A model generated the notes under the pieces. The model ran no database searches, had not been told where the DNA came from, and worked only from the letters and a program-made list of their open reading frames with translations. Shown in pieces: positions 1,586 through 29,648 of a stretch of 34,443 bases of DNA. Numbering within the stretch: the first letter of the stretch is position 1; each line of letters begins with the position of its first letter. Source of the stretch: Octopus sinensis (taxonomy: Eukaryota); assembly GCF_006345805.1 (NCBI RefSeq), contig NW_021831717.1:1-34443 (forward strand), in the 5' to 3' direction. Made by a program: the position numbers and the translations under genes.

Positions 1586-4500
1586 ATGGCCGTCTCCCCA
1601 CGAGCCAATCAAAGCTAAAAAATGACAACATTATCGTAGCACCAAAATGTTTTTGGAAACTAAAAGGGAAACTAAATCAGTATACCAAATCGCTTGTCCT
1701 ATGGTTAATCTGGAAGCGCGTCCCCCAGGGAAGAGCCAGCCTGGGATCGAAAAGTCATCAACTGGCACAAACTCTTCTCCGAATACGGACATGGATGGTC
1801 ACTTGAACGGGAAATCCCCCAACTCGAGCCCTCCAAGTTCACCACCACAACCACCACAAAGAAAAATGTAAGCGGAACAAATGGACCCGAGAAGAGTATA
1901 AAGAAGTAATATACGCTTATTACTATGCATTAGGTAGGCCATCTCAAGAGAGACACACCGCAAACTCTTACAGTATATGGAGAACACGGAATCAAGACAG
2001 TAGGCCCTATTTGGACGAGAACAAATTAGCAAATGTGAGGAGGGATATCCTTAGAAATAACAGACTCACAGACAGTGAAATAAACGCGATCAAGCACGCA
2101 ACGGAAAATGACATAAATATAAGACACAAAGGAAATGAAGAATCAGATGAACAGTATAGCCCGCCACGAGGCTTAATTGAAAGACTGCCATCTGACCAAA
2201 GTACGCAAAGGCCTGAAGATACAAGAAATTCTATTGTACCTGTTAAAGATAGCCAGGAAAACGAAAAAACAACAGTAACTGAAGATCTCGCATTTGCTGA
2301 AGAACACAGAGAGTCTATGGCAGAAATGAGGCAGAAAATCCTGAATACGCTTGAAGTTGTAAGACATACAAGTATGAATGACAGAGAACCGCTTCATAAA
2401 CTCTCAAATACAAACCAAAATAAAAAACAAATCCAAATTGGCAACTATGTAACAAATGAAATAATACGAGAATTAAAACCTGATTTTACTGAGTTAAATG
2501 AAATTATTTACGCTTCTGCTAGGGCAATTGAAACCAGCTGTATGCCCCCGAAAAAACAAAGAAAACAAAACCTGGGAAGAAATCAAACCTGGAGAAGTAA
2601 AATTGAAAAAGCGATTGAATTTATGAGAGGGGAAATATCAATATTAAATGAACTAATATGTGGAAATGATGTAAGATCCAGAACAGGAAGAAAGATGAAG
2701 AGAAAATTTGGATCCTCACCAAGAGAAGAACTGATATCAATAAAAGAAACGCTGAAACAAAAAGTCCAAGCAAAAGCCCAAAGAATACGAAGATTTGAGA
2801 AGAGAAACAAGTTTTACAAGCAAAATAAGCTGTTCACATCCAATGCCAAAAAATTCTACAGAGAAATAGGGAAGGAGAAAGTAACCGCTAAAGAACCCCC
2901 TCCCATGGAAGAAGTTCAAAACTTTTGGAAAAGGATTTGGAGTGACAAGAAGACGTACAACATAAATGCAGACTGGATTATACAAACTGAAAGATCCTAC
3001 CAAAATTTACAACAACAATCATGGGAAGACATCACAATAGCAGACCTAAGAAAGGCACTCACGAAGGCCCATAATTGGAAATCCCCCGGTAAAGATAGGG
3101 TGCCGAATTTCTGGCTCGCATCGCTCCCATGCGCACACGGTAAGCTAGTTCAGCTGCTCAATGGAATTATGAGAGACCCAAAGAAAACACCTGAATGGTT
3201 AGCAAGTGGCATTACTTACCTACTCCCAAAGAATAACGAAACCAACCTTCCAAAAACTATCGGCCTATAACCTGTCTATCCACCACGTATAAAATCCTAA
3301 CATCTATCCTGGCGGAGAAAAAATATGCATTCATGGAGAAGAACGATATTTTCCCCATTGAACAAAAAGGGTGCCGCCGAGGCTCTTACGGATGCAAAGA
3401 TCAACTGCTAATCAATCGTATGATCCTTGAGAACTGTCACAACAAGCTCAGAAATCTCAGCACCGCATGGATTGACTACAAAAAGGCCTTCGACAGTATA
3501 CCGCATCCATGGATCTTGAGATCGCTGGACATCTTCAAAGTTTCCCCTGTGATTTCAAACTTCCTGAAGCACAATATGTCGTTGTGGAATACGAATCTCC
3601 AATTACACCACTCTAATGGAGTACTTGCCTCAGAAAATATAAACATCAACTGTGGAATTTTTCAAGGTGACTCACTTTCACCTTTAATATTCTGCATAGC
3701 CCTAATACCCCTTACAAGTGAATTAAACAGAACAGGGTATGGGTATAAAATTGCCAATAAAAAAATAAGCCATGTATTTTATATGGATGACTTAAAACTT
3801 TATGGTAAAGACAATAATGAACTTGAAGGCCTATTGCGCACCGTGAAAGCATTCAGCGATGACATCGGGATGGAGTTTGGACTTGAGAAGTGTGCCAAGG
3901 CCACTTTCCAGAAAGGGAAAGTGAAGACCACAAATTCAGTCGTGTTAGATGTTGACACAGTCATAAGAGAGCTTGAGCAAGAACAAACATACAAATATTT
4001 AGGGATAAATGAAGGCTCTGGTATTCAGCATGCAAGCATGAAAGAGAAAATCAGGAAGGAATGTTATAGGAGAGTTCGTGCAGTCCTGAAATCTGAACTA
4101 AATGCACGTAACAAGGTGTTAGCTATAAATTCCTTAGCAGTTCCAGTTGTTACTTAGAGCTACAATGTGTTGAACTGGAATATGAGTGAAGTAAAGAATA
4201 TAGATAGAAAAATACGCAAGCTGCTGAGTTGTAATAGGATGCACCACCCAAAGGCAGACGTAGATCGCCTTTACCCTCCCAGAGCCCAAGGAGGTCGAGG
4301 CCTGATCCAATTTGAACTAGCTTACAAAACAACCACAATTGGACTGGCCAAATATCTCGAAATATCGAATGACTGGATGCTAAAGCTCGTGGAAAATCAC
4401 GAGAGACGAAAGAAGCTTCATTCTATCATCAAGGAAAGCAAAAAATTTGCTATTGATCTCGTGCAGGATACCCAAACTGAACAACCCGAGGGATGTACGG

Positions 4501-5498
4501 CAACTATTGTTGCAAAGAAGGTGAAAATGATGGCAATGAAAAAAGCGCACGAGCAATTGGCTGATAGGTGGGAGGAGAAACCTCTGCACGGCAAATATGT
4601 GACCCGCAGCAAACAAGCTGATGTTGACCAGAAGCAAACCCATCAGTGGCTACGGAGCTCAGGGCTAAAAGCAGAGAGCGAAGGTTTCATCCTGGCTGCT
4701 CAAGATCAAAGCCTATTAACCCGGAACTACCAGGCCAATGTGATGAAAAATGGAGCAGACCCAAAATGCCGATTCTGCAACGACATGATTGAAACAGTGG
4801 ACCACCTAATCTCTGGATGTAAAGTCTTAGCACCAGTGGAGTATAAATTAAGACATGAGAGAGTTGGCCAATATCTCCACTGGCTAATAAGTCGGCATTA
4901 CAATATCAAAACTGCCGACAAGTGGTATAATCACCACCCTGAGGCTGTAACTGAAGGAGAAAATGTAACCATTCTGTGGGACTTTCCAGTACATACAGAC
5001 CGAACCATCAAGGCCAATAAACCAGATATTGTTGTGAAAGACCAAAACAATAAAGTTTGCTTATTGATCGACATGAGCATCCCCTGTGATCATAATATCT
5101 CAGCGAAAGAGTTTGACAAGCTCAGAAAATATAAAGACCTACTCATTGAAATTGAGAAAATGTGGCATCTCAAGGCGGTTACAATACCAGTGATCGTAGG
5201 AGCACTAGGAATGATCAAGAAGGGAACCGAAAATTATATGAGAATGATCCCTGGCTTACCATCCCTGCAAGAAGTGCAAAAGATTGTCTTAACTGGTACA
5301 TCACACGTATTGAGAAGAGCATTGTCGATGTAGAACTGTTGCTGCTCATGTATTTTAATTTAACTTTAAAAAAAAAAATGAACGAACTACTGAGTTTGGT
5401 TTAATGGCCTACCAATGTATACTATGAGTTTCTTTGCCCTAGGAGTCGGGAAGACACTCGGCAAGAAATGGAAACAAATTTGAAAGAAGAAAAAAAAA
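1586..5498 (+). mobile_element. R4/Dong-clade non-LTR retrotransposon (Myb-like + RT + CCHC + restriction-like endonuclease), near full length
   Basis: Single interrupted ORF, a ~165-nt 3' UTR, an A-run and then a (TAA)n tract from 5499. The 5' boundary is approximate. Confidence 0.9.
1647..5333 (+). pseudogene. Interrupted ORF of the R4/Dong element (~1,230 aa when repaired)
   Basis: N-terminal Myb-like KWTREEYKEVIYAYY...ENKLANVRRDI (frame of 1861). RT motifs WKSPGKD, NYRPITCL, EQKGC, WIDYKKAFDS, GIFQGDSLSP, FYMDDLK, YKYLG. Zinc knuckle CRFC...HLISGC. RLE motifs RH...KPDIV...IDMSIP...KLRKY. Lesions: +1 A near 1862-1866, -1 A near 3252-3256, in-frame TAG at 4155-4157. Confidence 0.92.
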
Positions 5499-5518
5499 GT
5501 AATAATAATAATAATATA

Positions 5519-5553
<35 letters not shown>

Positions 5554-5844
5554 TTAATAATAATAATGGTTATGCTTCAAGAATTCTTCGCTGCGTTCTT
5601 GAAGAATGACCAGTAAACAAGTATCATCTAATTCTTATGGCTGTCGTCAACTGACACTTTCCATCATACCCAGCAAAATAAGCTGAGTTTTCATATAATA
5701 ATAATAATTATAATTATAATGATAATAATAATAGTGATAATGATAATAGTAATTATAATGATAATAATAATAGTGATAACGATAATAGTAATTATAATGA
5801 TAATAATAATAATAATAGTAATACTACTACTAATATTAATAGTA

Positions 5845-5883
<39 letters not shown>

Positions 5884-5888
5884 TGATG

Positions 5889-5930
<42 letters not shown>

Positions 5931-5962
5931 TAATAATAATAATAATGATAATAATAATAATA

Positions 5963-5996
<34 letters not shown>

Positions 5997-6020
5997 GGAT
6001 GAGATGATGATGATGATAAT
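5499..6020. repeat. (TAA)n tail/target tract and downstream (TAA)n/(GAT)n microsatellites
   Basis: Directly visible. Confidence 0.95.
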
Positions 6021-6104
6021 AGACCATTCATGATAGTGTTTCAGAAGACTTAGATTTCTGCTTCTTAGATTTCTATTCAGATTTCTGTTTAGGTTTAGGA
6101 AATA

Positions 6105-6400
6105 TTGGCCAGTTTTAAGCAACCGCAGACATTCTCGGAATCTCAATTTAGTTCCTCATTAGAGTACTGCTCACATCTATGGAAGAGTTTGCTGCTATAC
6201 GCACACACACTCACACGTAAATACACACGTATGTACACAACAAAGGTACAGCACACACGCACACATACACATCACACAAGCAGATATTCTCTACCATAAA
6301 CAAAAGTGGTTCGTCCAGCTGAATGACAAATATTATTTCACAAAGACACTCTAACTTCCCCACGCATCCCCTCCAAAAATCCAAAGATCAACTTCTCTAC
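6105..6400 (+). mobile_element. Highly decayed CR1/L2/Jockey-type LINE C-terminal remnant
   Basis: Translates to ...SSLEYCSHLW, resembling the RPxLEYCSxxW motif near the end of such ORF2s. Short and interrupted by CA repeats. Confidence 0.35.
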
Positions 6401-7392
6401 TTTAATAAAGCAGCTTATTTATTAGCTGAGGATATGTAACTGTTACTAAAGAAAGCAATTTGAATGTTGACGTATGTATCAAAATGTCGTTCCTAGATTT
6501 ATTTTATTGATGGAAATTTCTGCTTTTTTTCACTGCGTCACGTTGCCGGATGGAGGTTTTTAAGGCCTTTTTTTAACTGCGGAAATATAAAAGATACCCA
6601 AATTATTTGCAAATCTACTTTCTACAGACATATCAGCAACAGCATTTTTCAAATTACAAGCTTAATCAGGCGTCAGCGAAACTATATCACTGACAATATC
6701 CTTTTATATTTGTTGAAGGAATTAAAAACCCGAATAGGAAAAATGATTGTAATTTACTTGATTTCACCAAATATACACTTGTCTTATTGTCTTTCAAATG
6801 AGTATTTCTCACGCCTTGCCTTCTTCATAACTTCCAAGAAAGTAGATATTTTTAAATAAAATTTTATTCAAATAAATTTCAGGTGACGTAGATTGCGATT
6901 AACCTGGAAGTTATTTTGATTGATGTAGAATACAATTATTTTAGAAAAATCATTTTAAGACCTATTCCACCTATCTCCATTTAGAATTTGTTAAATGCAT
7001 ACGTTTTCCATAAAAGGAAATTTTCAGAGATACTGGCTTAATTCAAAATATAATGAAATTATCAGTTGTGAATTTGTTGAAACGGATATTTGTTATGCTA
7101 CAGGCCTTAGAACAAGCCAACTTGATCTCTGGATTCATGCTGTATCTAGCATACTAAATGACCACGTCCATTGTGTTTTTGTCTAAAAGTGGGAGGTTAA
7201 GCGGTAATACCTGGTTTCTTCATAAAGTCTAACACCGTATTGGTGAGAGCTTGGTATGATTCTGAATTTGGTTACTGAGTGGGATTAGACGACTAATCTG
7301 GGTAGGATTAGACGAATAAAAGATACAAAGGAATATGCCAGAAAAATGACACAACTTTGGAATCAAATATGTGAAAATAATTTAACGACTGC

Positions 7393-9751: not shown

Positions 9752-9788
9752 ATGGAAGTCTGACAATAATATAATATATACTACAAAA

Positions 9789-10181
9789 GAGCGGTGAGCT
9801 GGCGGAACCGTTAGCAGGCCGGGCGGATTGCTTAGTAGTATTTCGTCTGCCGTTACGTTCTGAGATCAAATTCCGCCAAGTCGACTTTGCCTTTCATCCT
9901 TTCGGGGTCGATAAATTAAGTACCAGTTACGCACTGGGGTCGATATAATCGACTTAATCCGTTTGTCTGTCCTCGTTTGTCCTCTCTGTGTTTTGCCCCT
10001 TGTGGGTAGTAAAGAAATAGGTATTTCGTCTGCCGCTCCGTTCTGAGTTCAAATGCCGCCGAGGTCGACTTTGCCTTTCATCCTTTCGGGGTTGATAAAT
10101 TAAGTACCAGTTGCGTACTGAGGTCGATTTAATCGACTGTCCCTCCCCCAAAATATCGGGCCTTCTGCCTAGAGTAGAAAA
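9789..10181 (+). mobile_element. Dimeric tRNA-derived SINE with 16-bp TSD
   Basis: Head GAGCTGGCGGAACCGTTAG and two copies of GTTCTGAGTTCAAA...GTCGACTTTGCCTTTCATCCTTTCGGGGT. AATATATACTACAAAA flanks it at 9773-9788 and 10182-10197. Confidence 0.9.
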
Positions 10182-10411
10182 AATATATACTACAAAAAAT
10201 ATCCCATCTCCATTGACAGTTGTACTTGTTCTAAGGAACATAAAAGTTTTTTGCATTGAATTTTTTTTACATAAGGGCTGCCGGTATTTAAGAAATCTCT
10301 TGGTAATCAACGAATCCTGCGTTCAGCCTCACTGCTCAGCACCTTGATTAAATAGATTTCTAACACTGACGGTCGATAAATTGGTCTGTAATCCGCTTGT
10401 GATTAAAAAGG

Positions 10412-14334: not shown

Positions 14335-15293
14335 TATTTCTTTATAAGCCACAAGAAGCCAAACATAGAACGGGGACAAACAAGACAGACAAATGGATAA
14401 GTCGTTACATCGCCCCATGCATAACTGATACTTATTTAATCGACTCCGAAAGGAGAAAGGCAAAGTCGACCTCAGCGGAATTTGAACTCAGAACGTAACG
14501 GCAGGCGAAAGGGCTTAACACAAAGGGGACAAACAGGACACACAAATGATTAAGTCGATTACATCGACTCCATGTGCGTAACTGTTACAGAATATATCGA
14601 CCCTAAGAGATGAAAGGCAAGACGACCTCGCGGAATTTGAACTCAGACGTAACGGCAGGCGAAAAGGCTTAACCAAGGGACAAACAGGACACACAATGAT
14701 TAATCGATTACATCGACTCCAGGCGTAACTGTTACAGAATATCGACCCAAGAGGATGAAAGCAAAGACGCCCCTCGGCGGAATTTGAACTCAGAACGTAA
14801 CGGCAGGCGAAAAGGCTTAACACAAGGGGACAACAAGGACACACAATGGATTAAGTCGATTACATCGACTCCAGTGCGTAACTGTTACAGAATATATCGA
14901 CCCCAAGAGGATTCAGGCAAGCACCTCGGCGGAATTTGAACTCAGAACGTAACGGCAGGCGAAAAGGGCTTAACACAAAGGGGACAAACAAGGACACACA
15001 AATGGATTAAGTCGATTACATCGACTCCAGTGCGTAACTGTTACAGAATATATCGACCCCAAGAGGATGAAAGGCAAAGACGACCTCGGCGGAATTTGAA
15101 CTCAGAACGTAACGGCAGGCGAAAAGGGCTTAACACAAAGGGGACAAACAAGGACACACAAATGGATTAAGTCGATTACATCGACTCCAGTGCGTAACTG
15201 TTACAGAATTTGAACTCAGAACGTAACGACAGACGAAATACTGCTAAGCATTTCGCCTGGCGTGCTAACGTTTCTGCCAGCTCGCCGCCTTCT
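14335..15293 (-). mobile_element. tRNA-derived SINE with an internal tandem array of ~150-160-bp units; 13-bp TSD
   Basis: AATTTGAACTCAG recurs at 14479, 14634, 14781, 14933, 15093 and 15207. The SINE head ends at ~15290. CTCCYGAGTTTCT flanks it at 14322-14334 and 15294-15306. Confidence 0.88.
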
Positions 15294-16005: not shown

Positions 16006-16212
16006 ATATATTTGTTGTGCAAGATTTTTTATGTGAAGTCGTGTGTTGAAACAGATATTGTTATATTTCGGAATGGTCATTTTGCCAGTTTAGCCAATAA
16101 AAACACACGCACTATATATTTGGTGTTATTTTGCTTCAGTGTTATTTATTTTTTACATTAATCTTAATCTTATTGGCTAAACTGGCAAAATGACCATTCC
16201 GAAATATAACAA
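16006..16212. mobile_element. 207-bp insertion with 16-bp TSD and a perfect 46-bp inverted repeat
   Basis: TATTCCTGAAACGTTT at 15990-16005 and 16213-16228. Arms 16055-16100 and 16170-16215 are exact reverse complements. Confidence 0.8.
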
Positions 16213-16461
16213 TATTCCTGAAACGTTTTGTAACAAGCATACATACAAAAAACCAAATACACCCGTGTACTCCATTTGCTACACACAATTACACATGATA
16301 ATGTATTTAGCTGAAACATGCACAAACTTTTTATATTTTTCTGATGAAGCAAATGATCAGAAAAATAATGCAGTATGAATGTATGCTCTAATTATTGTTA
16401 TATTGTTCATCTTTTTTATGTGGTTGATATGTATATATATATATATGTACATATATATATA

Positions 16462-23024: not shown

Positions 23025-23234
23025 AATGTGACCTCGTGTGTACCGTTTGCGATTTTGTTTCCTCCGTCTTCCCTTTTCTGGAACTTTCCTTTTCCTATGT
23101 TTCTGACGAAGAGCTCCGCTCGAAACGTAAAACCCTCCTTCTTCCCTTCCTTCCTGAACCTCCAATAATAATATATTTGTTCCACGTCCTCGCGTTGTTG
23201 TGTTTTCTCTTTGTGTTTTCATGTTTGGATGAAC

Positions 23235-23235: not shown

Positions 23236-23268
<33 letters not shown>

Positions 23269-25461: not shown

Positions 25462-25858
25462 TTCTTTTCTACTCTAGGCACAAGGCACGAAATTTTGGGG
25501 GAGGAGCTAGTCGATTACATCGACCCCATTGTTTAACTGGTACTTAATTTATCGATCCCCGAAAGGATGAAAGGAAAAGTCGACCCCGGCGGAATTTGAA
25601 CTCAGAATGTAAAGACATGAAATACTAATTTCTTTACTACCCAAAAGGGGCTAAACACAGAGGGGACGAACAAGAACAGACAAACGGATTAAGTCGATTA
25701 TTTCGATCCCATTGCGTAACTGGTACTTACTTAATCGACCTTGAAAGGATGAAAGGCAAAGTCTACCTCGGCGGAATTTGAACTCAGAACGTAACGGCAG
25801 ACGAAATACCACGAGGCAGTTCGCCCGACGTGCTAACGATTGAGCCAGTTCGCCGCCG
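25462..25858 (-). mobile_element. Dimeric tRNA-derived SINE (family of 9789-10181)
   Basis: Reverse-complement match along its whole length to 9789-10181. Confidence 0.88.
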
Positions 25859-26031
25859 TGACACATCAAATATGTGAAATATATTCAATACATTAAATAC
25901 AAAATATGAATATATGTATACACGTGAAACGAGGGAGAGCAAAATATATTTGTATTAAAGTAAAGAATGCCATCGAAGACAGAATATTAGGTAATATTTT
26001 TTATCTGATTTTGAAAACTTCAATAAATTAA

Positions 26032-26188
26032 TTCTTGCTTCTGGAAAGGTGTGAGCAACTTGGGAATCCATCTGGCAGACACCTTTTGCATATGCAAATG
26101 GTCATGAATGATAGTTTCCACAGACCCGGTACTAATCTTGACCTCATGGGCTATTTGGCGAATAGTTATGCGTCGATCTTCCAAAATG
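26032..26188 (-). repeat. 157-bp inverted copy of mariner internal sequence 26930-27086
   Basis: Reverse-complement identical except for two mismatches that I could find. Confidence 0.95.
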
Positions 26189-26247
26189 CTGATGATGGCT
26201 GCACTTTTCCTTGCGGAAAATAACAGCCGAAACTAAATTTAGTACAT
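26186..26247 (+). ncRNA. Type-I hammerhead ribozyme with intact core
   Basis: ATG-CTGATGA-T-GGCTG-(TTTTCC/GGAAAA hairpin)-CAGCC-GAAA-CTAAATTTAG-TA-CAT. Stems I, II and III all pair; predicted cleavage after 26244. Confidence 0.85.
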
Positions 26248-26531
26248 GGGTAAATATTTATTTCGTATATTTTTCACTTGTTTATTGTTTTGGTTTGGTG
26301 TTGAGTTTGATCTGAGAACATAGACTTTTTGTGGAGAAGGGCGATTTGACGTCTATATCTAGCATGTTGACTGTCCACTTTTCGTGTTCAGTCCTTAATT
26401 GGTATATATAAATATTTTAATCTTCGATTCTTTCTTAATATGCTAGACCACTGGTTCTAATTGATAAATATCAATTTTTATTACCTTAATTTATTTATAA
26501 AAATTATATATATATATATACACATACTATA

Positions 26532-27801
26532 CGGGGGACGCTCAATAAGTAATGCCCCTGACCCATTTGCAATTGTTTGATCTAGCTGAAATTTGCATGT
26601 GCAATTATTCATATCTCTACAGATTAAGTAGTAAATTACAGCTCTGTACTAATTGAGGTCTCTGATTTACAGGTGTTTGAACTGAGTCAAGTGTGAAATG
26701 GAGCCTGTTGAGTGTCGACAGTGATCCAGGTTTTGTATTGATAGGACGCACACCACGGGAGACTTTTGATGAAATGAAAGTAACTTTTGGTGATGATGCC
26801 CCATCATATGATCTTGTAAAACGCTGGCATCATGAATTCAAACATGGTCGGAATCTCTGGAAACAGCTCCCAGATCTGGTCGCCCCCTTCTGCCATTGAT
26901 GAGGCATTTGTCCGTCAAGTTGAGGCTGCCATTTTGGAAGATCGAGGCATAACTATTCGCCAAATAGCCCATGAGGTCAAGATTAGTACCTGGTCTGTGG
27001 AAACTATCATTCATGACCATTTGCATATGCAAAAGGTGTCTGCCAGATGGATTCCCAAGTTGCTCACACCTTTCCAGAAGCAAGAACGCGTCGAGGGCTC
27101 GAGGATGAATTTGGAGATGTGCCAAGAAGATGAGTCAAAATTTTTCAAAAGACTGATTACACAGGATGAAATCTGGGTCCATCACTATGATCCAGAGACC
27201 AAGCCCAGTCAATGCAGTGGAAGCACCGTGACTCACCTCCTCCAAAGAAGCCAAGGGTCCAGCCCTCCGCTGGCAAGGTCATGCTCCACAGTCTTCTGGG
27301 ACCAGGACGGAGTAGTGATGACAGATTTTCCTGGCCAAGGGTACCACAATTGCAGGAGCCTATTATGCTTCACTTTGAGGAAATTAAGAGCTATCAAAAT
27401 CAAGAGGCGGGGCAAGATCAGCAAGGCATCCTCCTCCTTCAGGACAACGCTCCGGTCCACAACTCGCGTGTCGCCAGATCAGAAGTACAGGCGTGCGCTA
27501 TGAACTCCGCCCCCATCACCCTACTCTCCTGACCTTGCACACTCTCATTTTCACCTCTTCCCAGCCATGAAGTTTTTTTGAAAATAAAGCGTTTCCCAAT
27601 GATGCAGCCTTGATTTCTGAAGTCACGTCGTGGTTGGAGGACCAAGCTGGGGTCTTCTACAAAAACAGTCTCCAGAGCGGCATCAAACGATGGGAGAAAT
27701 GCGTAACTCTGGGTGTAGAAAAGGACTAATACTGTGCCAAGTTTCGTTGCTCTAACTGTAAGGGAAGTGTGCCAGGGGCATTACTTATTGAACGCCCCTC
27801 G
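26532..27801 (+). mobile_element. Full-length (1,270 bp) mariner transposon, DD34D type, inactive
   Basis: TA on both sides and ~30-bp TIRs (CGGGGGACGCTCAATAAGTAATGCCCCTG / CAGGGGCATTACTTATTGAACGCCCCTCG). Transposase motifs WIPKLL, ITQDEIWVHHYDPETK, LLQDNAPVH and YSPDLAHSHFHLF (third D replaced). Many frameshifts. Confidence 0.95.
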
Positions 27802-28370: not shown

Positions 28371-28570
28371 ATCCAAACATGAAAGCTCAAAAATACACAA
28401 CGCGAGGACGTGGAACAAATATAGTATTATTGGACGCCCAGGAAAGAAGGAAAGAAGGGGGGTTTAACGTTTCGAGCGGAGTTCTTCGTCGGAAACATAG
28501 AAGGAAAGATCCAGAGAAGGGAAGACAGAGGAATAAAAATCACCAACGGTACACACGCGGTCACGTTTTG
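28367..28570 (-). mobile_element. Second copy of the hammerhead-bearing repeat (hammerhead at 28462-28496, core mutated)
   Basis: Reverse complement of 23022-23235. It reads GTTT-CCGACGA-A-GAAC-TCC-GCTC-GAAA-C-GTT-AAAC. Confidence 0.78.
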
Positions 28571-28812: not shown

Positions 28813-29648
28813 GTAAAAGTGAGAGAGATACATATATATATATAATATAATATATATATATATATATATATCTATATATATAGATAAGTACCTGGTTGGT
28901 TTTTAAAATGTGTGTTAGCTACCTTCAATATTTATAATCTTCACATTGCCATTTTGTGAAATCAGTCCCTAATTCCTATGGCATTCTCAATGATACTGAG
29001 AGGCGTGAGTTAGCCTCCACCAGCCGTAAGGGAGTGAGCATTGCTGATGAGTATTAACTTCCTATAAGAGATTACCATGCTAATCTAATCCATCTGGCTT
29101 CCGTGGGAATGTTCTCCCCACTGTCATGCAAACACCATATGTCTTTTTGTGGCACAGGAGTCTATGACTAATATTTCTAATAATGCTGGTGCTCACTGCA
29201 CTCTTTTCACACTTAGTGACTGTGAATTATTTCCTTGTTGGTTTCAAATTGCCGATACCCACCTCAATTTATATATATACACACCCATATATGTGTGTGT
29301 ATATATATGTGTGTATATATATGTGTGATGTATATGTATGTATATATATATACATATATATAAATACAGCAATTTAATAAATAAAACATATGCATACATA
29401 CATACATATATGTACATACCTACATCTATACGTATATATACATATATATATGAGTACAGGACACCACAAAAAAGCGTAGAACACAACGAGAAACGAAAAC
29501 ATAAAATCAAACAAGGAAACGGACTCTTTTCAACAACGAAAAACAGAGTACAAGACAAACAATACGAGGAACATTCCCCTTCTTCAGCTGCCCTGTTTTC
29601 GACTCAATGCGTATGTATATATATATATGTATATATACTATATATATA

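What the first reader, a model, noticed from the sequence alone, without database searches (positions are those of the whole stretch)
26032..27086. Mariner fragment captured in reverse and fused exactly at stem I of an intact hammerhead
Seen: 157 bp of transposase sequence (26930-27086) is copied in inverted orientation ~740 bp upstream with two mismatches. Its last three bases (ATG, 26186-26188) serve as the 5' strand of hammerhead stem I, pairing with CAT at 26245-26247. The hammerhead-bearing repeat then runs to the (TA)n tract where the mariner begins. Inference: a Penelope-type RT switched template onto nearby mariner DNA or RNA by microhomology at the ribozyme. The product would be an antisense-transposase RNA with a self-cleaved 3' end, and a read-through transcript would form a 157-bp duplex, a possible natural silencing trigger.
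Basis: partly seen in the sequence, partly recalled or inferred. Interest (0 to 1): 0.75.

Follow-up and report, generated by a model that had tools for sequence, protein, structure and literature searches.

The report
Fold-back scar at a retrozyme insertion
In an octopus gene intron, 157 bases of a neighbouring jumping gene sit copied backwards against a truncated ribozyme-bearing repeat; this is likely a one-off DNA repair scar that is predicted to cripple the ribozyme, not a gene-silencing device, and no sequencing data examined confirm the junction.

Summary
The inverted 157-nt copy and the hammerhead motif are in the sequence as described, but the reading changes. The ATG is native to the hammerhead family, a ~512-nt non-LTR retrozyme that inserts into (TA)n. 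It is a 3-nt microhomology, and the fusion cuts stem I from 5 to 3 bp (predicted pairing 0.001 vs 0.62-0.76). A sister version of the locus (C8838) carries the same insertion by descent but a different, palindromic 5' end, and keeps 283 nt of host DNA that the window lacks. So the window is most likely a later break-repair product: the arm's end folded back on its own strand, copied the mariner, and rejoined across a ~1.7-kb loss. One other locus (L169) shows the same geometry; 2 of 131 loci in all. The junction is unique in the assembly, the contig is error-rich, and no contig bridges it in 4 runs, so an artefact is not excluded. The host gene runs on the minus strand, where the ribozyme is antisense. 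Templated insertions are known for L1; I found none described for retrozymes. The scan's earlier notes showed nothing like this.

The parts
25830..26033 (.). Host left flank (intron of an adhesion-GPCR gene). It breaks at 26033; 26032-26033 (TT) is a 2-nt microhomology shared with the captured piece. 283 nt of ancestral host DNA beyond it is missing.
26032..26188 (-). 157-nt inverted copy of mariner 26930-27086 (templated insertion)
26186..26188 (+). ATG: 3-nt microhomology, native to both the retrozyme and the mariner reverse strand
26186..26249 (+). Type I hammerhead motif with stem I cut from 5 to 3 bp; predicted cut after 26244 in the native form
26186..26505 (+). 5'-truncated arm (q1-q320) of a ~512-nt non-LTR retrozyme unit; 26339 G is private to this locus and shared with both arms in C8838
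26506..26531 (.). (TA)n-rich target tract shared by the retrozyme and the mariner
26532..27801 (+). Decayed mariner-type transposon with TIRs; ORF broken; family has 1444 exact matches to one 22-mer
26930..27086 (+). Likely template of the captured piece, 425 nt from the arm's (TA) end
   Evidence: locality inferred from proximity and geometry

Best explanation
This is likely a one-off DNA break-repair scar (a fold-back templated insertion) at a retrozyme that had already inserted next to a mariner, and the ribozyme is likely a bystander that the scar is predicted to cripple. Shown: a mariner and a retrozyme share one (TA)n tract; the sister locus C8838 has the same insertion as a two-armed palindrome; the window replaces 1678 nt of that version with 241 nt through joints of 2 and 3 nt microhomology. 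Inferred: (1) the ancestral insertion was twin-primed and gave a palindrome whose right arm reached at least the ATG; (2) the palindrome broke near its centre; (3) the top strand was resected by more than 900 nt, and the bottom-strand 3' end (...CAT) annealed to its own strand at the mariner and was extended 157 nt away from the break; (4) that end was released and joined to the resected left flank at TT. C8838 would be a second outcome that lost the palindrome's centre.
For: Same insertion by descent: 26339 G is in the window and both C8838 arms and in 0 of 104 other arm alignments. C8838 and paralogues C10617/C10618 keep the 282-283 nt of host DNA. The ATG is native: 115 copies have C before it and 4 do not, namely the window, two other breaks at the ATG with AT microhomology, and one substitution. 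Palindromic two-armed insertions are common: 45 of 78 loci have both orientations, arm 3' ends are 70 at q231, 46 at q322 and 11 elsewhere, and 23 of 45 arm-arm joints overlap by 1-4 nt. Second case: L169 has 168 nt of its own flank, 100% identical and inverted, ~640 nt away, with the same strand geometry, between two arms. A mariner of this family within ~1 kb by chance is about 0.1% (1444 copies, my arithmetic). The window lacks a 6.1-kb element that C8838 has, as the outgroup C10618 does, so it is a distinct haplotype or paralogue. The active fold lies 8.3-8.9 kcal/mol above the minimum, against 3.0 for the native form.
Against: Neither junction is bridged in 4 of 4 runs (at most 3 samples); in each, one contig runs through 26033 into the host allele. 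The window contig is error-rich: 26 private differences in the mariner against 1 in C8838, and 82 against 17 in ~2.7 kb of flank. The long-palindrome ancestor is not observed, and q1-q42 is absent from C8838 at this locus. Sequence cannot prove the local donor: the stretch has no diagnostic variant and L034 is also identical. L169 fits capture during insertion equally well. Flank capture was seen at 0 of 79 other subfamily loci.
Confidence: 0.5

Rival explanations
1. Capture during target-primed insertion. The cDNA primed at the (TA)n tract ran to the ATG, left the RNA, snapped back on the resected flank and was extended by the Penelope-type RT or a host polymerase. The broken end was replicated before joining, so two sister ends were resolved differently (window and C8838). 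This is the closest form of the first reader's idea, with DNA as template.
For: L169's capture lies between two cDNA arms, after a short element-templated piece. 21 of 92 arms end within 29 nt upstream of the ATG, p about 0.005, a crude and selection-biased test. L1 templated insertions arise during integration (10.1101/2024.08.27.596794, passages), and replication of unligated ends is proposed for L1 (PMC11702581, passages).
Against: It needs two outcomes of one event both to survive. There is no significant pile-up at the ATG itself (3 of 92). The L1 templates were typically within 15 bp of the site; here the template is 425 nt away.
Confidence: 0.22
2. Long-read or assembly chimera at a palindrome-rich, multi-copy locus.
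For: No bridging contig in 4 of 4 runs. The 19-mer across the junction occurs once in the assembly. The contig is unplaced, 34 kb and rich in indels. PLE-type inverted structures are noted to trouble assemblies (PMC8557442, passage).
Against: It needs two joints within 157 nt, both with family-typical microhomology, plus forward q1-q42 that C8838 lacks. L169, on a chromosome-scale scaffold, has the same anatomy. The run data are contigs that drop rare variants. The flank is multi-copy (depth 214-654), so one copy could be pruned. Whether any run is the assembled individual is not known.
Confidence: 0.22
3. The fragment came from a distant mariner copy or transcript, or is an independent remnant, and lies near this mariner by chance.
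For: The fragment equals the family majority and a distant copy, L034. The family is large.
Against: Chance proximity is about 0.1%. The orientation is that of a fold-back. The fragment has 0 differences from the majority, while copies average 2.5-3 substitutions per 157 nt in this region, so it is not an old independent remnant. It sits exactly on a deletion boundary.
Confidence: 0.03
4. A functional self-cleaving antisense or hairpin trigger that silences the mariner family.
For: A read-through RNA of either strand is predicted to fold into a 154-bp or longer duplex (-478.5 and -462.5 kcal/mol).
Against: It is single-copy and absent from sister versions. Stem I pairing probability is 0.001. 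The host pre-mRNA is the minus strand, where the ribozyme is antisense. The local mariner ORF is broken.
Confidence: 0.03

Closest known systems
Animal non-LTR retrozymes (PMC7229834, passages seen; 10.64898/2026.07.22.740005, part 1 of 5 read)
   Same: Tandem non-coding units, each with a type I hammerhead; monomers, dimers and multimers; proposed non-autonomous derivatives of Penelope-like elements.
   Different: 'octopus', 'inverted', 'target site' and 'microsatellite' have 0 occurrences in PMC7229834's main text. Two-site priming on (TA)n and flank capture were not in the parts I read.
PLE minimal hammerheads and inverted pLTR insertions (PMC4209133, part 1 of 4; PMC8557442, passages; PMC11167929, parts 1-2 of 4)
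   Same: Helix I of 4-5 bp, an extra base before a long helix II, palindromic helix III, opposite-strand pairs 100-700 bp apart, microsatellite bias, extension of both target strands, two internal RT start sites.
   Different: No ORF here. [quoted passage not shown] These papers, in the parts seen, do not describe inverted copies of flank DNA.
L1 templated insertions and twin priming (10.1101/2024.08.27.596794, passages; PMC11702581, passages)
   Same: A non-element template under 250 bp built into the junction; microhomology of 2 bp or more; 3' end self-annealing after long resection; target deletion.
   Different: The element is a retrozyme. Templates lie 425 nt (window) and ~640 nt (L169) from the site, against typically within 15 bp. 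The event is probably germline and, here, probably after insertion.
Fold-back templated inverted insertions at yeast breaks (PMC11724301, abstract and outline only)
   Same: Microhomology fold-back at one end and end-joining at the other.
   Different: Mostly 5-34 bp and next to the break, against 157-168 nt and hundreds of bases away.

Membership tests
Type I hammerhead ribozyme | Core CUGANGA, GAAA and UH in type I order | tested here: met
   26189-26195, 26229-26232, 26242-26244
Type I hammerhead ribozyme | Helices II and III, with compensatory change in the family | tested here: met
   GGCTG/CAGCC vs GGTTG/CAACC; palindromic helix III in several subfamilies
Type I hammerhead ribozyme | Helix I of 4-5 bp or more | tested here: not met
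   3 bp in the window. Family: CCATG/CATGG, CTACG/CGTAG, CTATG/CATAG. Predicted pairing 0.001 vs 0.62-0.76.
Type I hammerhead ribozyme | Match to an Rfam hammerhead model | tested here: not met
   No hammerhead hit at E<=1 on the window or E<=10 on 26150-26300. A native copy was not scanned.
Type I hammerhead ribozyme | Self-cleavage | not testable with these tools
   Needs an in-vitro assay
Non-LTR retrozyme (the repeat family) | Tandem non-coding units, each with a type I hammerhead | tested here: met
   ~512-nt units in tandem, e.g. L024/L030, L198, L199. The window copy is a truncated single arm.
Non-LTR retrozyme (the repeat family) | Circular RNA intermediate | tested here: inconclusive
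   Arms run through the cut site and past one unit, which fits a circle or an uncut multimer. No RNA was examined.
Non-LTR retrozyme (the repeat family) | Sequence link to the pLTR of an autonomous PLE | tested here: inconclusive
   The one PLE-like element tested (6.1 kb, C8838) shows no similarity to the unit. No genome-wide search was made.
Fold-back templated insertion | Inverted copy of nearby DNA, read away from the break on the primer's strand | tested here: met
   the same geometry at L169
Fold-back templated insertion | Microhomology at both joints and loss of target DNA | tested here: met
   ATG (3 nt) and TT (2 nt); 283 nt of host DNA lost, 1678 nt relative to C8838
Fold-back templated insertion | Donor proven local by a shared variant | tested here: inconclusive
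   No diagnostic site in the 157 nt
Fold-back templated insertion | Junction present in independent reads | tested here: inconclusive
   Not bridged in 4 of 4 contig sets, which drop rare variants
Mariner/Tc1 transposon (donor) | TIRs, TA on both sides, transposase homology | tested here: met
   TIRs and TA. Pfam Transposase_1 E=4e-4, below its cut-off. The mariner label also rests on recalled motifs (WVPxxL-like, PYSPDLA).

The most novel reading that the evidence does not exclude
Octopus retrozymes integrate through a two-ended break in (TA)n. Both ends prime on a circular or multimeric RNA at two fixed TA-rich sites (q231, q322). A free cDNA end can snap back onto its own resected flank hundreds of bases away, so these ribozyme repeats themselves invert and duplicate host DNA and create hairpin-forming loci (about 1-2 in 100 insertions).
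Probability: 0.35. Interest if true: 0.55.

Novelty: new member of a known kind. Interest (0 to 1): 0.3.

Why it matters
As a single locus it matters little: a private scar in an intron with a weakened ribozyme. Its value is as a footprint. With L169 and the family's two-armed insertions, it gives genomic evidence on how animal retrozymes integrate (two-ended priming on (TA)n, microhomology joining, occasional fold-back onto the flank). PMC8557442 names the formation of such tandem/inverted PLE structures as an open question. It also warns that a neat fusion 'exactly at stem I' can be ordinary microhomology.

Tried and rejected
Mariner-supplied stem I: rejected, the ATG is native. Rescue of stem I by a bulged extension into mariner bases: gains only 0.6 kcal/mol. 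A repeated chimeric family: rejected, 1 match in the assembly. Hot spot exactly at the ATG: not significant. Donor assignment by variants: uninformative. First read-laying at 90% over 2.7 kb was swamped by repeats; the second, at 98%, showed no bridging contig. Expression: no RNA holder listed; no RNA run was laid. Rfam: no hammerhead hit. The promoter scan is bacterial-type, at chance level and not relevant. Link between the unit and the nearby PLE-like element: none found. Literature: 'retrozyme' + 'twin priming' gave 0 papers; searches listed no paper whose title or abstract start describes flank capture by retrozymes or PLEs. Most subscription papers are not searched, and no supplements were read. 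Earlier scan notes: other, permuted hammerheads in this genome; nothing by sequence or words. Rows dropped: L017 and L020 (same structures as L009, L012) and L024 (overlaps L030); L208 and L209 (same joint as L207); 3 chromosome-1 loci already in the subfamily set were left out.

Full report
Observation. The inverted pair is real in the assembly: 26032-26188 against 26930-27086, 157 nt, 2 mismatches, 741 nt apart, with no similarity beyond either end. A type I hammerhead motif follows at 26186-26247, and the repeat runs to a (TA)n tract, after which a mariner-type element with TIRs spans 26532-27801. Homologues of the host exons are named adhesion GPCR G6-like of Octopus. The exons map to the minus strand at 32673-32485 and 22903-22757, so the locus is intronic and the host pre-mRNA is antisense to the ribozyme.

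The repeat. It belongs to a large family: 1921 exact matches to one 19-mer, with a tandem unit of about 512 nt. In one search, 43 of 62 other matches start exactly at 26186 and none earlier, and the native upstream letters are GGGACC before ATG. So the ATG belongs to both partners. Of 119 exact copies of the core motif, 115 have C before the ATG. The other 4 are the window, two further breaks at the ATG joined to an inverted piece of the element through AT, and one substitution. Native stem I is 5 bp and shows compensatory changes between subfamilies, as does stem II, so the native ribozyme looks genuine. This fits the short-helix-I hammerheads described for Penelope-like elements (PMC4209133, part 1 of 4 read) and the tandem non-LTR retrozymes (10.64898/2026.07.22.740005, part 1 of 5 read; PMC7229834, passages). 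In the window only 3 bp remain. The active fold is 8.3-8.9 kcal/mol above the minimum and stem I pairs have probability 0.001, against 3.0 kcal/mol and 0.62-0.76 for a native copy (monomer model, no dimer or protein help).

How the family inserts. Among 78 subfamily loci, 45 hold arms in both orientations. Arm 3' ends fall at two TA-rich sites (70 at q231, 46 at q322, 11 elsewhere), and 23 of 45 arm-arm joints overlap by 1-4 nt. I infer priming from both ends of a break in (TA)n, then microhomology joining. A lizard PLE protein extends both target strands and starts at two internal sites (PMC11167929, parts 1-2 of 4), and inverted structures with microsatellite bias are PLE hallmarks (PMC8557442, passages). 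Only 3 of 92 arms that reach the ATG end there (p about 0.1); 21 of 92 end within 29 nt upstream of it (p about 0.005, crude, and the loci were selected for holding the core). 'Exactly at stem I' is therefore not special.

The sister locus. Contig C8838 is a second version of this place. It has the same mariner and the same right arm, but on the left it keeps 283 nt of host DNA, a second hammerhead-bearing palindromic repeat, and an inverted arm (q231 to q43) joined to the forward arm at q90. Paralogues C10617 and C10618 (92%) have the host DNA and neither element. Base 26339 G is in the window and both C8838 arms and in 0 of 104 other arm alignments, so the two are one insertion by descent. 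The window replaces 1678 nt of the C8838 version with 241 nt, through TT on the left and ATG on the right. At least one version was therefore remodelled after the cDNA was made. The window also lacks a 6.1-kb Penelope-like element present in C8838, as the outgroup does, so it is a separate haplotype or paralogue and not simply a mis-assembly of C8838.

The donor. The fragment equals the majority of 28 other copies, C8838's mariner and one distant copy (L034) at all 157 positions; the two mismatches are private to the window's mariner. Sequence cannot prove the donor, since the stretch holds none of the 46 variants shared by the window and C8838. Proximity does: with 1444 family copies, one within about 1 kb by chance is about 0.1%. 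A strand growing leftwards out of the arm must copy the mariner minus strand, its own strand, moving away from the break. That is fold-back on resected DNA; mariner mRNA cannot be the template (inference).

A second case. In 51 chromosome-1 loci chosen without regard to the ribozyme, one (L169) holds 168 nt of its own flank, 100% identical, inverted, about 640 nt from the priming end, between two arms, with short microhomologies. In 79 other subfamily loci none did within the 3-6 kb fetched. In all, 2 of 131. Templated insertions of under 250 bp are known at L1 insertions (22 cases, typically within 15 bp of the site; 10.1101/2024.08.27.596794, passages). cDNA self-annealing after long resection is proposed in PMC11702581 (passages), and fold-back insertions occur at plain breaks in yeast (PMC11724301, abstract). 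A search for 'retrozyme' with 'twin priming' gave 0 papers, and PMC13282606 on octopus repeats does not mention hammerheads or retrozymes.

Against the reading. The junction 19-mer is unique in the assembly. In 4 of 4 runs (at most 3 samples) no contig bridges either joint, and one contig per run passes 26033 into the host allele. These are contigs that drop rare variants, and the flank is multi-copy, so this is not proof of absence. The window contig has 26 private differences in the mariner against 1 for C8838, and 82 against 17 in the flank, many of them indels, which suggests a thin consensus. I give the artefact 0.22.

Function. A read-through RNA of either strand would fold into the long duplex. 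But the known transcription unit is on the strand without the ribozyme, the ribozyme is weakened, the structure is private, and the local mariner is broken. No expression data were examined. Silencing is not supported.

Verdict. Most likely a real but incidental fold-back repair scar after insertion (0.5), or capture during insertion (0.22). It is a new instance of a known kind of event, in an element class where I did not find it described. Interest 0.3.

Noticed in passing
L169 (G000:C1:90827700-90832100), 2135-2302 vs 1131-1298: Cleaner second case of flank capture: 168 nt, 100% identical, inverted, between two retrozyme arms, preceded by a 16-nt element-templated piece.
   Followed up: yes
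Retrozyme family, positions q231 and q322 (window 26415 and ~26505): Nearly all arms start at one of two TA-rich sites 91 nt apart and often run past one full unit, which suggests two-ended priming on a circular or multimeric RNA.
   Followed up: partly
L003, L107, L108, L223, L233: 5 of 15 arm ends between q20 and q100 fall at q56-q61, around the predicted cut site (p about 0.007; L108 is an internal deletion, and q56 lies before the cut). A weak hint that the native ribozyme cuts in vivo.
   Followed up: partly
G000:C8838:15460-21659, absent at window 23236-23259: 6.1-kb Penelope-like element in a (TA)n tract with a 1.1-kb direct pseudo-LTR, an inverted 5' piece and frameshifted RT and endonuclease-like frames (assignment from recalled motifs). 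No standard hammerhead was found in it.
   Followed up: partly
C8838, between the host flank and the inverted arm (L092 ~5240-6420): A second ~1.2-kb palindromic repeat with its own hammerhead-like motif in both orientations; its 3' end resembles that of the main family.
   Followed up: no
C8838, absent at window 28873-28882: About 0.8 kb of a ~390-nt tandem repeat inserted in another (TA)n tract; no clear hammerhead.
   Followed up: no
L135-L192 (many chromosome-1 loci): An abundant short subfamily forms near-perfect palindromes of about 100-200 nt per arm, mostly without the hammerhead.
   Followed up: no
window 23103-23125 and 23095-23198 / 28397-28500: A minimal CUGACGA...GAAA motif in a repeat that has an inverted relative 5.2 kb away.
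   Followed up: no
window 1807-5333 +: Retrotransposon with RT (Pfam RVT_1, E 2.5e-29) in three broken frames.
   Followed up: no
window 16055-16215: Near-perfect short palindrome (likely a MITE or another two-armed insertion) that gives spurious plant miRNA matches below threshold.
   Followed up: no
window 26197-26208 vs 26923-26935: The hammerhead's GGCTGCACTTTT resembles the mariner's GGCTGCCATTTT right at the switch point (10 of 12); may be chance or may have helped pairing.
   Followed up: no
window 14372-15209: Tandem array (160 nt x 5.4) of an abundant SINE-like repeat also present at 9788-10188 and 25500-25860.
   Followed up: no
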